In this document: in pieces, positions 13,645 to 42,069 of the stretch
How the letters are laid out: each line of letters opens with the position of its first letter
How positions within the stretch are numbered: position 1 is the first letter of the stretch
Source of the DNA: a virus
Taxonomy: Duplodnaviria > Heunggongvirae > Uroviricota > Caudoviricetes
Direction: 5' to 3' (one strand)
IMG/VR virus record: IMGVR_UViG_2541047817_000001
Location: 1 to 42,069 of that record
Length of the DNA: 42,069 nucleotides
The notes under the pieces: model-generated
The model's database searches: none
What the model was told of the DNA's origin: nothing
The model's input: the letters and a program-made list of their open reading frames with translations, nothing else
Program-made: the position numbers and the translations under genes

Positions 13645-14529
13645 TTATATTGGGCGCTTTGAATTCGATTTAAAGCGTCTTCCACTTATTCCAGAAACCC
13701 AAATGTCTTCCTCAAGAAAGTCAAGAAGGGCTTTTATTTCTTTTTTTGATGAAGGCATGACAATTTTCTCAACACCGCCAACTATTATGGTTTGTAAGGG
13801 GAAATTAACTTTAGCAGCTTCGGATTTAAACTTTGACATATTTTGGGGTGTTAGCATCCCAGTCTGATTTATTAGTGTTACTTTATTTCTTATCACTGTA
13901 TCTGCAACGGATTTTAGATCAAAACCTTGGGGAGTAGAAAATATACTAAGTTGACTAAATGCATTAAGTTCTTGGTCAGTAGCAGCAGAAAAATAGGACG
14001 ACATGTCAAAAATGCTTCTTAGATTAAAGAAACTCTTAAATCGTATTGTATCATTGATAATTATTGCAACTAGTTTATCATCAACATTAAAACCGATGCT
14101 ATTAGCTTTACTAAAGGTAGTTTTGCTTGCAAAAAGCTTTCCAAAGAATGATTTTGAGGTATCTAAGATTTGTTTTTTGTTGAAAGTTTGTAGTGCAATA
14201 ATATTGGGGTTTGCTGGCGCGTCAACACCAACAAATAATGCTTTAATATAACCAATATCAATTTGGCTAGGATCCCAGATAGGCACGGCGGTAGGCCTAT
14301 TGACTGCGTCAATCAGGCGTGCAGAATCAGTAAAGTTTTGTATTTCAAAACACTCACTATGTTTTGGTGTATAACCGGCATAGAATGGTATCATATTGTT
14401 ATGATGACTTTCAAAATATTGACGCTGTTGTTGGAAAATGGCCGTAACAGAAGTACTTGCTGTTGCATCAAGTTCGACTCTAACAATTCTCGTTGCAATT
14501 GTATTATCTATTACTGCAAAAAGTGCCAT
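13645..14529 (-). CDS. Hypothetical protein (294 aa); second gene of the AT-rich antisense island; candidate defence component
   Basis: ORF with no recognisable motif, visibly AT-rich, on the opposite strand to the late operon, 5 nt downstream of the membrane-protein gene. Confidence 0.6.
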   Translation of the reverse strand: MALFAVIDNTIATRIVRVELDATASTSVTAIFQQQRQYFESHHNNMIPFYAGYTPKHSECFEIQNFTDSARLIDAVNRPTAVPIWDPSQIDIGYIKALFVGVDAPANPNIIALQTFNKKQILDTSKSFFGKLFASKTTFSKANSIGFNVDDKLVAIIINDTIRFKSFFNLRSIFDMSSYFSAATDQELNAFSQLSIFSTPQGFDLKSVADTVIRNKVTLINQTGMLTPQNMSKFKSEAAKVNFPLQTIIVGGVEKIVMPSSKKEIKALLDFLEEDIWVSGISGRRFKSNSKRPI

Positions 14530-14534
14530 GGTTA

Positions 14535-15056
14535 TTATCCTTTAACATGTAGAAATGTGTAGTCTGTTAATTGAATAACTGTAAATTTGATATCTTTAAT
14601 ATCAGTAATAACTGATTTAGAAATCAATACAAAACCTACGCCGGTGTCATCTTCAGCTTCGTAAAATTTATAACCGATAAGTGACAATACTGGGTTAAAG
14701 TTATAGTTCTCGGAAAAGCTGATGTAAAATAACAATGATAAATAAAAGAATAACGCATATGCTTTATTTTCAGCAATAGAATCTGTTCCTAGGAGAGGGA
14801 ATAAATAGCTTAAGAAATAATTAGTTACTTCTTTGTTAGCGGGAGAAACTGAACTAATATTTTTTGTCAGAGGTTCAAGTTGTTTCTCAGCATATTGAAT
14901 CAGGCCTATTGCTAATAACCAACTTGCTATGCCAACGCATAAGCTATATTGCATCAGCCAAACCGTATCTTTTACATATCCAATAAAAAATAGAGTTGCG
15001 CAAACAGGTGCAATTGAGCTGGCTGTTAATAATAAGCGTGCTAATTTGTTCATCAT
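14535..15056 (-). CDS. Integral membrane protein (173 aa, about 4 TM helices); first gene of the AT-rich antisense island
   Basis: Hydrophobic segments at roughly residues 8-28, 36-56, 80-91 and 100-118. AAGGA ribosome-binding site ahead of the ATG at 15054-15056. Visibly AT-rich. Confidence 0.6.
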   Translation of the reverse strand: MMNKLARLLLTASSIAPVCATLFFIGYVKDTVWLMQYSLCVGIASWLLAIGLIQYAEKQLEPLTKNISSVSPANKEVTNYFLSYLFPLLGTDSIAENKAYALFFYLSLLFYISFSENYNFNPVLSLIGYKFYEAEDDTGVGFVLISKSVITDIKDIKFTVIQLTDYTFLHVKG

Positions 15057-16639: not shown

Positions 16640-17248
16640 AAGAGGCAGATTGATCGTGTTTTCGAAGTGTTATACCACGCCCGTTCTGTTAATTTGGCAA
16701 AATCTGTTCTGATGCAATGAGTATCGAAAGATTTATTGGACTGGTTGCTTTGGTTATCACTGTTATCGCTGGAGTTGTTGGCCTAGGGCGTATCCGTGGC
16801 ACTAGTAAAAGAAGAGGTTAAAACTGCTCTGTTATACACTGAAGTTAACGCAGCGGCTAAGCACTCAGCAGCAGGACACCGTGTAGAGGCAACGGAAGAG
16901 GCCAGAAATATACAGCAGACTATTAACCATATTCCTGGTGACTCTGTTGAGCGCGGTATGCATAAGAAATACAAACGTACAATTTGAAGTGGTATATTTT
17001 TCTTGTTAGTAGATGAATATAATATACCACACAGAATACGATATAATTATTGCTCATGCTTACCTAAATATGAAAAACAATAAAGTTATAAGTAGACAAG
17101 TGTTTTGTTACTTTTAATAATTGATGTGATGTATATATTAAGATTGAAAAATTTAATCATTCTTTCCACATATAAATTAAGTGGTTCCCTTAGCTTGTCA
17201 TTTTTGATGATAAGTGAGAGAATATGAACATTATATGATGGAGATAAT

Positions 17249-17560
17249 ATGTCAAACATAAAAATCAAACAAGCTATTGAAAAGATTGCGGAGTTCAGAG
17301 CAGCATCTGCTGCGATGGCTGATGCTCACATGGTTCTTATTACAGAGCTATTGAACTCAATTGAGGATATCCGCAAAAACTCTGGTGATAATCTCTCTGA
17401 GTTTGAAAAAGGACAGGTTGCTCTCTACATAAAAATTAGCCCAGTTGTGAAAAATGGAATTTCGAGTATTGAAAAATATAATGAGTCTTTAAGTTCAGAC
17501 TATGTTGAGGCTATGAACTCCTTATCTAAAATTGCGGGAGGGAATTCAAATGTCGATTGA
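17249..17560 (+). CDS. Hypothetical soluble helical protein (103 aa); gene 1 of the AT-rich three-gene cassette
   Basis: ATG at 17249 preceded by GGAG. Visibly AT-rich. No recognisable motif. Confidence 0.55.
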   Translation: MSNIKIKQAIEKIAEFRAASAAMADAHMVLITELLNSIEDIRKNSGDNLSEFEKGQVALYIKISPVVKNGISSIEKYNESLSSDYVEAMNSLSKIAGGNSNVD

Positions 17561-17936
17561 AGATGTTGGAAGCATCCTTGATAGATTAAAAGTAGCCAGG
17601 ATCGAAAATAAAAAAATTGAAGAGTCAGCTGGAAAAGCAGAGGAAAATGCTGTTAACTCTAAGCATACTGATGGTAAAACACGAAGCGCCTTAACTATTA
17701 CGTTTCTCTGGTTCTTTTTTTGCCTTCTTATTTTTAGCTGTCTTTTTGTTCTTTGGTATAATAATTCTGTTGTGAATTGGGCTTTAGAGTTAAAGAGCAA
17801 AGGTGTTGATGATTACGTTCAATATTTAAAGCCACTCGAGCTGGAAAAGGTATTGTCAATAATGATTACTGCCCTTGGTACTTCATTAGGATTTATAATT
17901 GGGTATTATTTTAAGGATAAAGAAAATCATTCTTAA
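17550..17936 (+). CDS. Small membrane protein (128 aa, 2 TM); gene 2 of the AT-rich three-gene cassette
   Basis: ATG at 17550 preceded by GGGAGGG; overlaps the end of gene 1, suggesting translational coupling. TM segments ALTITFLWFFFCLLIFSCLFVLWY and VLSIMITALGTSLGFIIGYYF. Confidence 0.55.
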   Translation: MSIEDVGSILDRLKVARIENKKIEESAGKAEENAVNSKHTDGKTRSALTITFLWFFFCLLIFSCLFVLWYNNSVVNWALELKSKGVDDYVQYLKPLELEKVLSIMITALGTSLGFIIGYYFKDKENHS

Positions 17937-17981
17937 TATAGAGTTATCTCTAAAGATAACGAATTTTAATAGGAGGGCAGA

Positions 17982-18284
17982 ATGTCTGAACTGAATTATG
18001 AAGCAATAGGTCGCTGCAAAATCCTTAATGAAAAGATCAAAGATCTTCATGCTGAACGAATGAAAGCTATTGGTGATTTACGTACTGCTGTCTATGCCCT
18101 TCATCAGAAAGGGAATGTAAACCTCATCCCACCAGAAATTGTTGAATTCAACCCCCAATCGCTTACATCCCTTGTAGAGAAGGTTGGTCACTATGATGGT
18201 GAGCTGATGCGAGCTGTACATGAGTACAACAACTGGTGTGTAGAAGCAGGCGAGAAACCCGTAAAACTTATAAAGCTAGACTGA
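17982..18284 (+). CDS. Hypothetical protein (100 aa); gene 3 of the AT-rich three-gene cassette
   Basis: ATG at 17982 preceded by AGGAGGG. Visibly AT-rich. No recognisable motif. Confidence 0.55.
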   Translation: MSELNYEAIGRCKILNEKIKDLHAERMKAIGDLRTAVYALHQKGNVNLIPPEIVEFNPQSLTSLVEKVGHYDGELMRAVHEYNNWCVEAGEKPVKLIKLD

Positions 18285-37621: not shown

Positions 37622-38010
37622 TATCCCAGTACCAGAAAATCACCTGTTTCAGTTGCGGCTGAAGTTGATATAGTCCTTGCAGCACAAATGGCCTTTAATT
37701 CTGTTTTTGTTAGTTCTGACACTCCCCAGGAATTAATACCTATTGGGCCTGTGGATACTGCGGTTTTTTCAGCAATAAATGCCATAAATGCAGAATTTGG
37801 AAAAGCAATAGGATAACTTCCTGTTGCAACACCAGTTTTACTATCAGAAGGTCCGATTCTTCCCCATTGGATAATAAAAGACTTCCCCTCTATAACAGGG
37901 ATTTTTATCCAGCCAGATGATGATAAAGAGCCACTAATCGCAGGCAATTTGGCCGCTTCTCCCAAACCAACGTTTATGAAAATGCAGAAATAACGAGAAA
38001 ATGGCATCAT
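37618..38010 (-). CDS. Alternative tail fibre variable C-terminal segment (silent in the current orientation)
   Basis: Its N-terminal region (NVGLGEAAKLP) parallels the tail fibre junction ([11 protein letters not shown]); the ORF starts at the right recombination site. Confidence 0.65.
   Translation of the reverse strand: MMPFSRYFCIFINVGLGEAAKLPAISGSLSSSGWIKIPVIEGKSFIIQWGRIGPSDSKTGVATGSYPIAFPNSAFMAFIAEKTAVSTGPIGINSWGVSELTKTELKAICAARTISTSAATETGDFLVLGY
37957..37982. repeat. Right hix/gix-like recombination site of the invertible segment
   Basis: TTCTCCCAAACC-AA-CGTTTATGAAAA, in inverted orientation relative to the left site. Confidence 0.6.
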
Positions 38011-38036
38011 TCCTGCTTTTGTCAGAGGGAGCTACC

Positions 38037-38228
38037 ATGCTTATTGGCTATGTTTTCGTATCAACAAATGACCAGAAAATCGATCTACAACGTAATGCGT
38101 TGAACTGTGCAGGATGCGAGCTGATTTTTGAAGACAAGATAAGCAGTACAAAGTCCGAGAGCCTAGGGCTGACACTGCTGTTCTTGATGCAAATTAAAGG
38201 ATTTAATAGTGAGTTGTGGCCTTACTAA
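38037..38228 (+). pseudogene. Truncated serine DNA invertase (Pin/Gin/Hin family), N-terminal roughly 40 codons only
   Basis: MLIGYVFVSTNDQKIDLQRNALNCAGCELIFEDK matches the invertase N-terminus including the catalytic Ser motif (VSTNDQ); after about residue 41 the sequence diverges and stops at 63 aa. A full invertase is about 185-190 aa. Confidence 0.75.
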
Positions 38229-38261: not shown

Positions 38262-40151
38262 TTAATCGTGTTTTGGCCATACTTTCAATGCAATTTCCCC
38301 CAACTTTTTACCCCGCTCCAGGATTTCACCCTCATCCCATTTATCCTTAAGTATAAGTGGTATGTTCAGTCGTAGATTGGTGTGGACGATGAGAGCATCA
38401 CGTTTTTTCAGAAATACAGCATTCTGAACAGAACGGTTTACGCTAAGGTTAAGCAAAGTTAGATTTCCCAACGTAGCTATCGCTTGTTGCCGTTTCCTTA
38501 CCAGTAGCTGCTCAGGGGTAAGATCTGTTCCAGACAGAACAATTTGGTTCAATACCGTTGCATCTGAATTTGTCACCATATGACCATTTTCGAGAGGCCA
38601 ACAGGAATACCAACTTTGAGGCATAAGATGATCGATATCGAGATTGGAAAGATTTGGAACATCAGGCTTCTCTGTCTTCACTTGGCGACAAAGTTCTCTT
38701 TCAAGTTCCGTTAACATTGAGCGCATTTTCGGTGCGTCGAGCCTGCCAGGATAAAGTGGAGCATTGATGCAAGCATTGAGAAATTCTGAGTCACCAGGCC
38801 AACGTGAGGCTTCGCCATTTAAGCTATTGAGGATATTACGTAACTCAACACTGGAAATTTCCGTTTTAGACAAGTGCCGCAATACATTCATAAATACATT
38901 GTTGTAATTCTTTGGCGTCAGGCCACATACGGCTCTTCGTACTACGTAGGAGACAAGATCATTATACATGGCTGCTTTCTCATCATCGGCGATATTAGCT
39001 ATCGAAATGAACAAAGCAAGCGGATAAAGTGTCGTCACATCATAGGCTGCGATGCGATGTCCAAAGTGTGAGATGGGGGTTGTGCCAAAACCACCAACTA
39101 ATTCTTTATATTGTGATGCATATTGTTTGAGGCGCTTTACTTGCAGATCAGCTCGTTGTGAAGGCAAGTCCTTACTTACATAATCACGATACTCATTGTA
39201 AAGACGAGACAGATCAATTTCACGTTGCCTTTCTGATTGCAATGTCGCATGCACTAGCCACTCCATGCGTGGTTTATTAATACGTCCACGGCGTTGCCTT
39301 TCCGACCAGTATGTATCTTCAAAGCTCTTCCACTCATTTTCATATAATTCAATAGCATTAATATTTTCATGCTCAGCGCACATAAAGATGTAGTTGCGAA
39401 TAAGATCCGTGGCATGAAGTTCCGCCCCTCGGCCATTTAATGTTTCAAAAATTATTTGGGCATCATCTTCAGCTTCGAGAAATATGCTTACCAGTTTCAG
39501 ATCCGTCAAGACAGCCTCAATTAGTGCTACAGCATTTTCATGTGGTGAGTACTTTTCTATTTTAATCCATTTTATAAAGGCTTCAGTAAAAAACCATAAT
39601 GCCTCTAGTGACGGCGGGTGGTTGAAATGTTTACGTAACGTACCATGTTGCGTGAAACTATCAGAAAATACATCACGGAGATCGTCAATATTTTCAACAT
39701 TAAAACTTTGAATAAAATGAGTTTGGTCTCGAAAAGTTGGCCACAGTTTGAAGCATTCTACCTTTTTATTTCGCATAGTTGCTTCGTTTGTATTTTTCAA
39801 GCAAGTCAATACTAACCCTTCCAAATCAGAAAGGCCTGTAGCACGCAATGATAATCGAATGGATGCCAGAATATATTGAAGAGTGGTTAAACGTTGCTGG
39901 CCGTCAATAATATGTATGGTATCTACACCTAACAAGCTGTTTTTGAGTTGAGGTTCCAGCACCACCGCGCCAAGGAAATGGGGAGTTGGTTTTGTTCCCA
40001 AAAGTCGGCTATGTGCTTTTTCGAAGATATCCTCCAGCAAAGCTGACCATTGGTTTTGTTGCGTCCATACGTAGGCACGTTGATAGAATGGAACACGATA
40101 TTGTCGTTGATTTTGGAAAAGTTGCTGGATGGTTAGCGTTTCGGATTTCAT
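38262..40151 (-). CDS. GmrSD-like type IV (modification-dependent) restriction endonuclease, fused DUF262 + DUF1524 (629 aa)
   Basis: N-terminal DUF262/ParB-like motif IIDGQQRLTTLQ (DGQQR); C-terminal DUF1524 His-Me finger-like motifs (DIDHLMPQSW, LGNLTLLNLSVNRS). Confidence 0.8.
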   Translation of the reverse strand: MKSETLTIQQLFQNQRQYRVPFYQRAYVWTQQNQWSALLEDIFEKAHSRLLGTKPTPHFLGAVVLEPQLKNSLLGVDTIHIIDGQQRLTTLQYILASIRLSLRATGLSDLEGLVLTCLKNTNEATMRNKKVECFKLWPTFRDQTHFIQSFNVENIDDLRDVFSDSFTQHGTLRKHFNHPPSLEALWFFTEAFIKWIKIEKYSPHENAVALIEAVLTDLKLVSIFLEAEDDAQIIFETLNGRGAELHATDLIRNYIFMCAEHENINAIELYENEWKSFEDTYWSERQRRGRINKPRMEWLVHATLQSERQREIDLSRLYNEYRDYVSKDLPSQRADLQVKRLKQYASQYKELVGGFGTTPISHFGHRIAAYDVTTLYPLALFISIANIADDEKAAMYNDLVSYVVRRAVCGLTPKNYNNVFMNVLRHLSKTEISSVELRNILNSLNGEASRWPGDSEFLNACINAPLYPGRLDAPKMRSMLTELERELCRQVKTEKPDVPNLSNLDIDHLMPQSWYSCWPLENGHMVTNSDATVLNQIVLSGTDLTPEQLLVRKRQQAIATLGNLTLLNLSVNRSVQNAVFLKKRDALIVHTNLRLNIPLILKDKWDEGEILERGKKLGEIALKVWPKHD

Positions 40152-40736
40152 TGTTTACCTATAAGTGACATTCCACAAGAGTAAGAAATTAATCTGAGTC
40201 AGAATAATCATTTTTATGTAGTCATGATACAGTGTATTTGTTGCTGGTGAAGTAAAAACGAGAAATCCCGCTTTTGAATGCTGACGTGCTACGGTTTCAT
40301 TGGATATTCTCTTTTGTCTGTTCTCCATTGCGTCGGTGTTTTTTCGAGATTGTTAGCACATTGTTGCTGCTGTTTTTTTATCCAAGCGCTGCTAAATCAT
40401 TGTAGATGGCACTATCGGGTATTGAAGCTGCAGACATGTCGTATACAATAGTCAGCTGCGGCTGGCTGGTGAACTTCCGATAGTGCTAGTATTGAATTAT
40501 GTCAAGCCGTTATCGATTTTACGTATTTTTTGTATGAGAGGATTTGCACCTCCTCCCACCGCTCCTCCATGACTTTACGCCACTGTCTCTAGGGCTGCTA
40601 AGTGCCAGGAACAGACATTGGTGGTATGCAGGGTCAGAGGGGAATAAAAAACTTATTATATTGATCAAGATGGGGCTATTCTTCGCAACTTAAGCCGATA
40701 TAATACAGATCAAGTGTGCTCTTTTAGGGTTCCATA

Positions 40737-41672
40737 TTGATTAACAGAAAATTAATCAGGGAGATAAGCTTGAGCGAATCCACTATAATCCTTGCTAAAG
40801 AATCAATTTCAGATGGACGTGAAGTAAACGAGATAAATGAAATAAGACCCCTTAATAATGAGGAAATTGAAGTGTATGATACACAAAAAAATATACTTAT
40901 GGAGTTTGTGAATGATTTTGCCTTAGTAGAATATGTAAGATTGAACTATGAGTCACTAATGGAACTTCTGGATGAAACGGTTAAAAAAGTAGCCGAAGAA
41001 CCTTCTTTTATTGGTTCATATCCCTTCAAAACCTTCAAATTCTTTTTAAATACAAGAATACTGAACTATATGATGTCAGTGAAAACTTTACTTGACCATA
41101 TGGAAACCAGTATTAACAGGAGGTATGGGGCTAATTCAACGGAATTTGTCGAGTTTAAAACGCTGACGGGAAATGAATTTGATAGCAAGTTTTCATATAG
41201 ATTCATGTATAAGCTCAGAAATTTTGTTCAGCATTGTGGAATGCCACCACTTTCGTACACGATATCAAAATCACTTGATGAAACCAGTAGTACTTTAATT
41301 GTAGAGTTAATCGTATATTTCATGAGAGATGAATTGATTCGTGGATTTTCTAAGTGGGGGAGTCAGGTAAAGACTGACCTGACACAGATGGATGAATCTT
41401 TCCCAATAATGCCGATTTTTAATGAGCACATCAATTCTATTTTCAAAGTGTATATTCTATTCAATGAAAAATATCACATCACAAAAGCTTTAAAAGCAAA
41501 AGAATTCATAATAAACTTCATTGGAGAGAGAGAGGATTATATTGATGATGAATACATTATCGCAGAACTAAAAAATACACAAACAGGTTTGAGTATAAAC
41601 AAAAAAACCATTCCTACATCAGCGCTTGAGAAAATATCCGATTTTTACAGAATAAAAGAATACCTATTTTAG
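40737..41672 (+). CDS. AT-rich hypothetical protein (311 aa) with an Rx4H HEPN-like motif; candidate Abi-like effector
   Basis: Visibly AT-rich ORF; motif RNFVQH (residues 161-166) fits the HEPN Rx4-6H signature. Start is a non-ATG (TTG) in the ORF track, so the true N-terminus is uncertain. Confidence 0.5.
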   Translation: MINRKLIREISLSESTIILAKESISDGREVNEINEIRPLNNEEIEVYDTQKNILMEFVNDFALVEYVRLNYESLMELLDETVKKVAEEPSFIGSYPFKTFKFFLNTRILNYMMSVKTLLDHMETSINRRYGANSTEFVEFKTLTGNEFDSKFSYRFMYKLRNFVQHCGMPPLSYTISKSLDETSSTLIVELIVYFMRDELIRGFSKWGSQVKTDLTQMDESFPIMPIFNEHINSIFKVYILFNEKYHITKALKAKEFIINFIGEREDYIDDEYIIAELKNTQTGLSINKKTIPTSALEKISDFYRIKEYLF

Positions 41673-42069
41673 CAATGGACATGGCTTAGAGAAACTAACA
41701 CATTTTTACAGAGAAAGCCGCGGATATCACTGGTTGCGCTAACATATTTTTCGAACTATGTGTAATTGTATTCGCTGCCTGAGACTGAGTATCGGCAGGT
41801 CACCAGCACGTTTTCCATTATAGATGGCGTGACCTGCTCCCCACTGATTAATACGCCTCAATGCCAGTCATGTTGTTGAGGCTGCCAATGTCCGCATCTC
41901 GCTCATAACACATTCACTACAGTTATGGTAGAAGGTATGCATGCTGGGTGGGGAAAGTATGAAGGAAAAGAAGACTGCTGCGCCGTTTGTTGTCACATTT
42001 ATCTTCATTGGCTATGCAAGTCGTAATACAAGGTGGGACAAAACTGAGACACATAAGGCCTCGCAATGA

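What the first reader, a model, noticed from the sequence alone, without database searches (positions are those of the whole stretch)
40737..41672. AT-rich 311-aa orphan protein with a HEPN-type Rx4H motif: candidate abortive-infection RNase
The gene is visibly AT-rich, transcribed divergently from the GmrSD-like gene across a 585-bp non-coding gap, and carries RNFVQH at residues 161-166, which fits the HEPN Rx4-6H catalytic signature seen in AbiD/AbiF-type (Abi_2) and other HEPN abortive-infection proteins. With the neighbouring type IV enzyme this would make the right end of the prophage a small defence island.
Basis: inference. Interest (0 to 1): 0.55.

Follow-up and report, generated by a model that had tools for sequence, protein, structure and literature searches.

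The report
Widespread uncharacterised HEPN-like prophage defence candidate
The last gene of this E. coli prophage belongs to a large, unnamed protein family found across bacteria and archaea whose only invariant residues form an RNase-type (HEPN-like) Rx4H motif, which makes it a credible but untested single-gene anti-phage suicide nuclease.

Summary
The ORF and the RNFVQH motif are real. The likely start is the TTG at 40770, giving 300 aa with the motif at residues 150-155. The protein is not an orphan: a profile search found 3,768 cluster representatives in many bacterial phyla and in archaea. None has a Pfam, NCBIfam or PADLOC match.

In 97 diverse members only R150, H155 and W196 are invariant, and N151 is kept in 96 of 97. 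Two AlphaFold models (pLDDT 92) place the motif at the C-terminal end of the third long helix of a helical bundle, which is where HEPN domains carry it. A beta-hairpin follows directly.

Genomic context is defence-like. The gene sits in prophage accessory slots and islands next to TIR, HEPN, restriction-modification and YobI genes, and it has no conserved partner. In E. coli, 12 of 17 carriers hold a disrupted copy. DefensePredictor already lists this exact protein as a predicted novel defence gene (log-odds 13.2), untested. The gene moves as a roughly 1.3 kb cassette bounded by a hairpin motif that also marks other cargo hotspots.

The parts
40770..41672 (+). Coding sequence of the 300-aa protein (identical to or about 99% identical to RefSeq WP_074468291.1). 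TTG start; 32% G+C.
   Evidence: ORF. RefSeq boundaries. Conserved TTG start and SD. G+C content. AF2 model with pLDDT 92.5.
41217..41234 (+). Codons for R150-N151-F152-V153-Q154-H155, the Rx4H motif. It lies at the C-terminal end of helix 141-156 and is followed by the conserved C156-G157-M158-P159 loop and a beta-hairpin at 161-185.
   Evidence: R150 and H155 are invariant and N151 is 96/97 in 97 diverse members. Helix position comes from DSSP on two independent models.
41094..41120 (+). Codons for D109-H110-M-E112-T-S-I-N116-R117 in helix 2. This is the second conserved block (family consensus LDHxETxLKR, i.e. an E-x3-K/R pattern).
   Evidence: D109 91/97, H110 94/97, E112 as E or D 81/97, K116 60/97, R117 as R or K 85/97. 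Spatial proximity to the Rx4H motif could not be measured.
40590..40769 (+). Conserved 5' leader of the cassette. It contains a TATAAT -10-like hexamer at 40699-40704 and the SD GGGAGA at 40759-40764.
   Evidence: Conserved in seven enterobacterial genera, while the sequence further upstream is unrelated. In E. coli genomes it occurs only together with this gene. The promoter is inferred; the scan tool did not call it because the -35 is weak.
40602..40624 (+). 5' boundary motif GTGCCAGGAACAGACATTGGTGG. The consensus is GTGCCAGGAGCGGAC(A/G)TTGG. In most copies it is preceded by GTCCGCT, which forms a 7-bp stem; the stem is degenerate here.
   Evidence: The same 20-mer flanks unrelated cargo in 8 viral contigs. 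A 31-nt version occurs intergenically in 2,001 of 5,426 E. coli genomes, including the gap between the tail-fibre-assembly and sheath genes of a P2-like prophage.
41673..41905 (+). Conserved 3' flank of the cassette. It has two inverted repeats (41773-41799 and 41856-41881) and ends with CCAATGTCCGC (41885-41895), an inverted copy of the core of the 5' boundary motif.
   Evidence: Alignments of seven genera. Coordinates. No Rfam match and no intrinsic terminator called on this strand.
38262..40151 (-). Neighbouring but independent defence gene: a GmrSD-family type IV restriction enzyme. It is not part of the cassette.
   Evidence: Pfam GmrSD_N and GmrSD_C; PADLOC mREase_IV at 1481 bits. It is absent from the neighbourhood of orthologues in other genera.

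Best explanation
The gene encodes a stand-alone, prophage-borne anti-phage effector of a large family that has not been described before. Its catalytic core works like a HEPN ribonuclease.

Proposed mechanism. The protein is made at a low level from its own leader, which has a weak -35 and a TTG start. Its helical bundle (helices 30-76, 89-119, 124-156 and about 214-251) dimerises so that two R150-N151-x3-H155 motifs, each at the tip of helix 3, form a metal-independent endoribonuclease site. The beta elements wrapped around the bundle (N-terminal hairpin 4-27, post-motif hairpin 161-185, C-terminal hairpin 262-280) keep the site inactive until a phage-derived trigger is sensed. Cleavage of tRNA, mRNA or rRNA then arrests the cell and aborts the infection.

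Shown: a conserved family; invariant R and H; the motif at the end of the third bundle helix; a conserved fold; mobile and defence-type genomic context; no conserved partner gene.

Inferred: dimerisation, RNase chemistry, the trigger, the abortive outcome, and the role of the beta elements.
For: Conservation. R150 and H155 are two of only three invariant residues in 97 members at 19-39% identity to the window protein. N151 is 96/97 (the polar residue after R that is typical of HEPN), and the helix-2 block D109/H110/E112-x3-K116 is also conserved.

Context.
- It is the last gene before attR of a thrW prophage that also carries GmrSD and Kiwa.
- In Klebsiella it lies between lambda-P-type replication genes and the Q antiterminator.
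- In Morganella it lies next to a prophage integrase.
- In Celerinatantimonas it lies between int/Dam and cI, with TIR and DUF4145 genes nearby.
- Other homologues lie next to a RiboL-PSP-HEPN gene, a TIR_2 gene in Yersinia and a YobI-ATPase gene in Leclercia.
- The distribution across phyla and archaea is patchy.
- No partner gene is conserved; at most 4 of 97 immediate neighbours share a Pfam family.

Loss in E. coli. 12 of 17 carriers have the gene disrupted, by an IS5-family insertion or by a 5' deletion that removes the motif.

Independent prediction. DefensePredictor gives this exact protein a mean log-odds of 13.2 against a strict cut-off of 4 and labels it 'Predicted novel defense gene' (PMC13092281, Table S10).

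Precedent. HepS of Gifsy-1 is a solo, partner-less prophage HEPN Abi anticodon nuclease (PMC13043305).
Against: No sequence or profile link to any HEPN family was found.
- Pfam, NCBIfam and PADLOC gave nothing for the protein, for 97 relatives or for the family consensus.
- PDB profile searches found no related chain: only marginal hits to unrelated proteins outside the motif region, best E 0.005.
- hhalign against a RiboL-PSP-HEPN profile gave 0.2% probability.
- DefensePredictor's own HHblits and Foldseek columns are blank for this protein.

Geometry is uncertain. Simple helical-hairpin reasoning puts the E112-x3-K block roughly 25 A from the Rx4H tip rather than next to it.

No experimental data exist. 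A second conserved polar cluster (N59, R105, D109, H110, D138) could indicate different chemistry.
Confidence: 0.45

Rival explanations
1. It is a defence or exclusion protein, but not a HEPN-type RNase. The helical bundle uses other chemistry, for example a metal or ligand site built from D109/H110/D138/H155. Alternatively it acts non-enzymatically as a sensor or blocker. On this reading the Rx4H resemblance is convergent or coincidental.
Against: The only invariant polar residues are exactly R-x4-H, with N after the R, at the HEPN-typical helix end. Only two histidines are conserved, which is too few for hemerythrin-type or DinB-type metal sites. HEPN families are notoriously undetectable from one another by sequence (PMC3710099).
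Confidence: 0.25
2. It is the toxin of a toxin-antitoxin-like module. The antidote would be an unannotated small RNA or peptide encoded in the conserved 170-nt leader or the 240-nt 3' flank, as in type I or type III TA systems or the RNA-regulated AbiF system. On this reading it is not a self-contained sensor-effector.
For: The non-coding flanks are about as conserved as the gene across seven genera and contain inverted repeats. A 34-aa ORF overlaps the start of the gene in Morganella. HEPN toxins often have antitoxins (PMC3710099).
Against: There are no tandem repeats of the ToxI or AbiQ type and no Rfam match. No conserved neighbouring protein gene was found in 97 neighbours from 59 diverse loci. 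Distant homologues lack these flanks. Part of the flank conservation is explained by the boundary motif that is shared with unrelated cassettes.
Confidence: 0.12
3. It is a prophage accessory gene with a non-defensive role, such as anti-defence, lysogeny or host-physiology modulation. It would be found in cargo slots simply because that is where all morons sit.
For: No function has been tested. DefensePredictor's experimental validation rate was 45% overall. Some homologues sit among ordinary chromosomal genes, for example in Pantoea and Flavobacterium. No complete phage genome in INPHARED carries the gene.
Against: A log-odds of 13.2 is in the high range, where validation rate rose with score (r = 0.95). 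The gene co-locates repeatedly with TIR, HEPN, restriction-modification, Kiwa and YobI genes. It is present in archaea and many phyla outside prophages. An enzyme-like invariant motif also argues against a purely regulatory role.
Confidence: 0.15

Closest known systems
HepS, the solo HEPN abortive-infection anticodon nuclease of Salmonella prophage Gifsy-1 (PMC13043305)
   Same: A single-gene, partner-less protein carried in a prophage accessory slot. The Klebsiella orthologue of the window gene sits in the equivalent lambdoid slot after the replication genes. HepS has a canonical Rx4-6H motif and is expected to be inactive until triggered. Both are widespread and patchy in distribution.
   Different: HepS-family members are under 250 aa, with the motif at R100-H105. 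No PDB sequence, HepS included if deposited, matches the family profile. The window protein is 300 aa and has three beta-hairpins around the bundle. Its oligomeric state, trigger and substrate are unknown.
HEPN superfamily in general (HepT/DUF86 toxins, Csm6/Csx1, Cas13, RnlA; defined in PMC3710099)
   Same: Single proteins of about 300-350 aa with an RNxxxH motif, associated with phage defence.
   Different: PF07751 does not match the window protein, its 97 relatives or the family consensus, even at permissive E-values. The window protein is not a member.
DefensePredictor 'predicted novel defense genes' of the E. coli pangenome (PMC13092281, Table S10)
   Same: The very same RefSeq protein, WP_074468291.1, is listed there. 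Mean log-odds is 13.2 and no remote homologue is found among known defence proteins.
   Different: That listing is a machine-learning score only. It gives no family description, motif, structure, cassette anatomy or experiment.
Cargo cassettes of the P2 Z/fun-type hotspot between the tail-fibre-assembly and sheath genes (Rousset et al. 2022, PMC9122126)
   Same: The hairpin motif GTCCGCT-N-GTGCCAGG-AGCGGAC-GTTGG that starts this cassette also sits at the start of the variable cargo in a P2-like prophage, between the tail-fibre-assembly and sheath genes.
   Different: In the window the cassette lies at the attR end of a thrW prophage with a Mu/e14-type tail region, not in P2. PMC9122126 does not mention such a motif. 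Nilsson et al. 2004 (Mol Biol Evol 21:1) may describe it, but the paper could not be read.

Membership tests
HEPN superfamily (PMC3710099) | Conserved Rx4-6H motif with a polar residue (N, D or H) immediately after the R | tested here: met
   R150 97/97, N151 96/97 and H155 97/97 in 97 members at 19-39% identity to the window protein.
HEPN superfamily (PMC3710099) | Motif located at the C-terminal end of core helix 3 and the start of the loop to helix 4, within an all-alpha up-down four-helix core | tested here: met
HEPN superfamily (PMC3710099) | Conserved acidic residue in helix 2 (often E-x3-[KR]) positioned next to the motif | tested here: inconclusive
   E112 is E or D in 81/97, K116 is 60/97 and R117 is R or K in 85/97, all in helix 2. 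Hairpin geometry suggests the block may lie far from the motif.
HEPN superfamily (PMC3710099) | Profile or profile-profile recovery of known HEPN families (HHpred 75-98% in the defining study) | tested here: not met
   Pfam hmmscan of the protein, 97 relatives and the family consensus gave no HEPN family. hhalign against a RiboL-PSP-HEPN profile gave 0.2%. Comparisons with single DUF4145 and RiboL-PSP sequences gave nothing. Only one HEPN profile could be built, and a full HHpred library was not available.
HEPN superfamily (PMC3710099) | Structural similarity that is specific to HEPN domains | tested here: inconclusive
HEPN superfamily (PMC3710099) | Dimer with a composite active site, and metal-independent endoRNase activity | not testable with these tools
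   No multimer prediction or biochemistry was available.
Abi_2 (AbiD/AbiF, PF07751) | Match to the PF07751 profile | tested here: not met
   No hit at E<=10 for the protein or the consensus, nor at E<=1 for 97 relatives.
HepS family (PMC13043305) | Standalone HEPN protein under 250 aa that is homologous to STM14_3211 | tested here: not met
   The protein is 300 aa. No solved chain is matched by the family profile: at E<=10 only marginal hits to unrelated proteins outside the motif region. The HepS sequence itself was not available for a direct comparison.
Type III toxin-antitoxin / ToxIN-AbiQ-like | Tandem direct repeats (an RNA antitoxin) upstream of the toxin gene | tested here: not met
   No tandem repeat lies in the non-coding flanks of 40100-42069; the single weak array reported (9-nt period, score 31, 40820-40845) is inside the coding sequence. 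No Rfam match.
Known anti-phage systems (PADLOC-DB 2.0) | Match to any defence-protein model | tested here: not met
   No hit for the protein at E<=10. For 97 relatives there were only isolated, noise-level hits.

The most novel reading that the evidence does not exclude
The protein would be the founding member of a very large immune family, spanning many bacterial phyla and archaea, that has not been recognised before. Its Rx4H site would either be a convergent invention or belong to a HEPN clade too diverged for every current library to detect, and it would be built into a new alpha+beta sensor-effector architecture. In addition, the gene would be shuffled between P2-like, lambdoid and Mu-like prophages, islands and plasmids as a discrete cassette through a dedicated hairpin boundary site (GTCCGCT..GTGCCAGG..AGCGGAC). 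That would amount to an integron-like cargo-exchange system for defence genes in enterobacterial mobile elements.
Probability: 0.15. Interest if true: 0.8.

Novelty: new variant of a known kind. Interest (0 to 1): 0.55.

Why it matters
If the prediction holds, one more single-protein abortive-infection nuclease joins the bacterial immune repertoire. It would be a large addition: thousands of sequence clusters in many bacterial phyla and in archaea, none covered by Pfam, NCBIfam, PADLOC or any solved structure. A compact 300-aa protein that both senses infection and kills, like HepS, is an attractive system for studying how HEPN-type sites are held in check and released, and it is a potential RNA-targeting tool. 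The family also shows the limits of homology-based defence annotation. Only a motif-plus-topology argument and a language-model score point to its function. Separately, the boundary hairpin shared with other cargo hotspots offers a testable handle on how defence cassettes move between unrelated mobile elements.

Tried and rejected
- Family libraries: Pfam, NCBIfam, PADLOC and PHROGs scans of the protein gave only PHROG 30874, of unknown function.
- Relatives and consensus: Pfam and PADLOC scans of 97 relatives, and a Pfam scan of the HMM consensus, gave noise only.
- Solved structures: PDB sequence and profile searches found nothing relevant.
- Profile comparisons: hhalign of the family against single DUF4145, RiboL-PSP and DUF5677 sequences, and against a 36-sequence RiboL-PSP-HEPN profile, was not significant. 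An attempt to build a DUF4145 profile from viral contigs yielded one sequence. The pNP40 AbiF record was not in the plasmid collection.
- Adjacent DUF5677 genes (two loci) as paralogues: only a faint 'Y..L....HC.M' resemblance at 0.3% probability, so dropped.
- Conserved partner gene or antitoxin: none found among 97 immediate neighbours.
- ToxIN-like repeats, Rfam families, a terminator or a strong promoter: none.
- Membrane anchoring or domain fusions: no TM segments. The only extras are an occasional C-terminal Zn-ribbon and a 'YxEGWDRIFGK' tail in one subgroup.
- tblastn against complete phage genomes: no hit.
- attR inside the window: not present. It lies about 106 nt beyond the window end.
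- Literature: searches for the accession, the motif sequence and pBS32+HEPN returned nothing, apart from DefensePredictor Table S10.
- Nilsson et al. 2004 could not be read.

Full report
**1. The observation**

The window holds an ORF at 40737..41672 (+) whose translation contains RNFVQH. The RefSeq annotation of an essentially identical locus in E. coli LH13-b starts the protein (WP_074468291.1, 300 aa) at the TTG that corresponds to window 40770. That TTG is preceded by GGGAGA six bases upstream. TTG plus SD is conserved in orthologues from Pantoea, Morganella, Klebsiella, Yersinia, Tatumella and Leclercia, whereas the 40737 TTG is not. I therefore take 40770-41672 as the gene, with the motif at R150-H155 (nt 41217-41234).

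The gene has 32% G+C against 50% for the window. It is divergent from a bona fide GmrSD-type type IV restriction gene at 38262-40151. In a single sequence the motif is not beyond chance: Rx4H occurs in 15% of shuffles and R[NDH]x3-5H in 6%.

**2. Not an orphan**

A first search found 41 clusters in Enterobacterales, all labelled 'hypothetical' and mostly 300 aa. An exhaustive profile search found 3,768 representatives at 50% clustering with E<=1e-3, of which 1,829 are at E<=1e-10. A second indexed search and a genome scan placed members in the following groups:
- Gammaproteobacteria, Bacteroidota, Bacillota (Priestia, Dethiobacter) and Cyanobacteria
- Myxococcota, Chloroflexota, Actinomycetota and Gemmatimonadota
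- Archaea (Methanosarcina, Methanobacteriaceae, Bathyarchaeota)

A homologue sits on the Bacillus subtilis plasmid pBS32, next to the terminase genes of its defective prophage. None of these proteins has a Pfam domain. The window protein, 97 diverse relatives and the family consensus give no Pfam, NCBIfam or PADLOC match. Only PHROG 30874, of unknown function, matches.

**3. Conservation and structure**

In an alignment of 97 members at 19-39% identity to the window protein, the only invariant residues are R150, H155 and W196. The nearly invariant ones are N151 (96/97), Q154, G157 and P159, and in the preceding helix D109, H110, N99 and D138, plus an E112-x3-K116/R117 pattern.

AlphaFold2 gives a confident model (pLDDT 92.5) with these elements in order:
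- a beta-hairpin at 4-27
- long helices at 30-76, 89-119 and 124-139/141-156
- a beta-hairpin at 161-185
- short helices
- helices at 214-251
- a beta-hairpin at 262-280
- a helix at 283-299

A separate model of a 29%-identical Priestia homologue has the same architecture (pLDDT 92.1). In both, the Rx4H motif occupies the C-terminal end of the third long helix and a hairpin follows. [quoted passage not shown] It notes a polar N/D/H after the R and an acidic E-x3-[KR] in helix 2, and it describes a beta-hairpin right after the motif in Csx1 (PMC3710099). On motif, neighbouring residue and topology, the family fits.

**4. Where the HEPN claim falls short**

I built a RiboL-PSP-HEPN profile from a gene that happens to sit next to a family member. 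hhalign against the family profile gave 0.2% probability. HEPN membership thus fails the homology criterion as far as I could test it. 'Works like a HEPN RNase' rests on the motif and its structural position. Simple hairpin geometry suggests it may not.

**5. Genomic context**

The window is a prophage integrated at thrW (tRNA-Thr at 1369-1444). A 30-nt copy of the tRNA 3' end lies about 106 nt beyond the window's right end. The gene is therefore the last cargo gene before attR. The same prophage carries a complete Kiwa system (KwaA and KwaB at 13645-15056) and the GmrSD gene.

Orthologues and distant homologues occupy accessory slots and islands:
- next to a prophage integrase in Morganella
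- between lambda-P-type replication genes and DinI/DUF968/Q in Klebsiella
- in a prophage early region in Tatumella
- between int/Dam and cI in Celerinatantimonas, with TIR and DUF4145 genes beyond the integrase
- just upstream of the HNH and terminase genes in Priestia and pBS32
- next to TIR_2 in Yersinia, YobI-ATPase in Leclercia, RiboL-PSP-HEPN plus an integrase in a metagenome contig, and DUF5677/AAA_15/GIY-YIG in Dethiobacter

Among 97 immediate neighbours in 59 diverse loci, no family recurs more than four times. A minority are restriction-modification, Mrr, MmeI, Schlafen, PIN, mad2, integrase or IS110 genes. The gene is therefore a stand-alone unit in mobile, defence-rich surroundings.

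Only 17 of 5,426 complete E. coli genomes carry the gene. Five copies are intact. Two are interrupted by an IS5-family element. Ten have lost the first 525 nt, which includes the motif. This is the turnover expected of a costly defence or toxin gene.

**6. Prior knowledge**

The exact protein appears in Table S10 of the DefensePredictor paper, among 1,041 E. coli clusters of 'predicted, uncharacterized defense proteins'. Its mean log-odds is 13.2 against a strict cut-off of 4, and the HHblits and Foldseek columns are empty, meaning no similarity to known defence proteins. It is not among the tested systems (PMC13092281). That is independent support for a defence role, and independent confirmation that homology methods see nothing. 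The closest functional precedent is HepS, a solo HEPN Abi protein of prophage Gifsy-1. HepS senses tail-tip proteins and cleaves tRNA anticodon loops (PMC13043305).

**7. Cassette anatomy**

This goes beyond the original finding. Across seven enterobacterial genera, conservation begins about 170 nt upstream of the TTG, at GTGCCAGGAGCGGAC(A/G)TTGG (window 40602-40624). It continues about 240 nt past the stop. In the E. coli-type flank it ends at CCAATGTCCGC (41885-41895), an inverted copy of the motif core. In Yersinia a direct copy lies 384 nt after the stop, and a TIR gene starts 153 nt beyond it. In most copies the motif is preceded by GTCCGCT, which gives a 7-bp stem.

The same 20-mer occurs in eight viral contigs, each time in front of different AT-rich cargo. 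A 31-nt version occurs intergenically in 2,001 of 5,426 E. coli genomes at 1-5 copies per genome. Examples include the gap between the tail-fibre-assembly and sheath genes of a P2-like prophage (the P2 Z/fun-type hotspot), a lambdoid prophage after its replication genes, an island in strain Nissle, and a plasmid. It has no Rfam match, and I found no paper containing the sequence. A 2004 paper on site-specific recombination in P2-like phages may describe it, but I could not read it. The rest of the leader is specific to this gene.

**8. Verdict**

Best explanation (confidence 0.45): a stand-alone prophage defence effector that works as a HEPN-like, metal-independent RNase. Its beta elements would act as a sensor or lock, and it would trigger abortive infection.

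Rivals:
- a defence protein with different chemistry (0.25)
- a toxin with an unrecognised RNA or peptide antidote encoded in the conserved flanks (0.12)
- a non-defensive accessory gene (0.15)

The family is a new, unnamed one. The candidate-defence status of this protein is already in the literature as a machine-learning prediction, but the mechanism is not.

Noticed in passing
window 13645-15056 (- strand): A low-GC island (33% G+C) lies between the DUF968/HNHc gene and the holin/Rz lysis cassette. It encodes a complete Kiwa defence system: KwaA at 14535-15056 (PADLOC, 277 bits) and KwaB at 13645-14529 (497 bits).
   Followed up: yes
window 40602-40624 and 41885-41895; also L079 4288, L082-L089, L090 3501-3530: A short hairpin-type motif (GTCCGCT-nn-GTGCCAGG-AGCGGAC-GTTGG) bounds the gene cassette. 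It also precedes unrelated AT-rich cargo in 8 viral contigs. It is present at intergenic sites in 2,001 of 5,426 E. coli genomes, including the gap between the tail-fibre-assembly and sheath genes of a P2-like prophage. It may be a cargo-exchange or regulatory site. It has no Rfam match and no literature hit for the sequence.
   Followed up: partly
window 38001-38228 (+): The Pin/Gin-type invertase gene next to the invertible tail-fibre segment is truncated (RefSeq: 'recombinase family protein, missing C-terminus'). The truncation falls exactly where the low-GC GmrSD cargo begins, so the cargo insertion probably destroyed the invertase.
   Followed up: partly
E. coli genomes, loci L001/L002 and hits H46-H62: Only 5 of the 17 E. 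coli genomes that carry the gene have it intact. Two carry an ISKpn26 (IS5-family) insertion near codon 24. Ten share a deletion of about 540 bp that runs from leader position 167 to gene nt 525 and leaves a 270-nt remnant ORF.
   Followed up: yes
window 17000-18000: A second low-GC patch (32% G+C) contains small ORFs (17249-17560 and 17532-17936) with no Pfam or PADLOC match. It may be further moron cargo.
   Followed up: partly
L014 6903-7760 and L012 4242-5099: DUF5677 genes of 285 aa lie immediately next to family members in two unrelated genomes (Dethiobacter and Priestia). They share a faint 'Y..L....HC.M' string with the motif helix. hhalign probability was only 0.3% against a single sequence.
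   Followed up: partly
proteins P0087, P0110, P0137, P0173 (about 345 aa) and P0124: One subgroup of the family has a 45-aa N-terminal extension and a conserved C-terminal tail, 'Y(A/I/R)EGWD(R/T)(I/V)FG(K/S)'. One member ends in a Cys-rich zinc-ribbon-like segment. No member has a predicted transmembrane segment.
   Followed up: no
NZ_PQRW01000015.1 (DefensePredictor Table S10): In another E. coli strain the identical protein lies about 2.6 kb from a TIGR04141 'sporadically distributed protein' that is itself a top DefensePredictor hit (log-odds 13.9). The neighbouring cargo therefore varies between strains.
   Followed up: no
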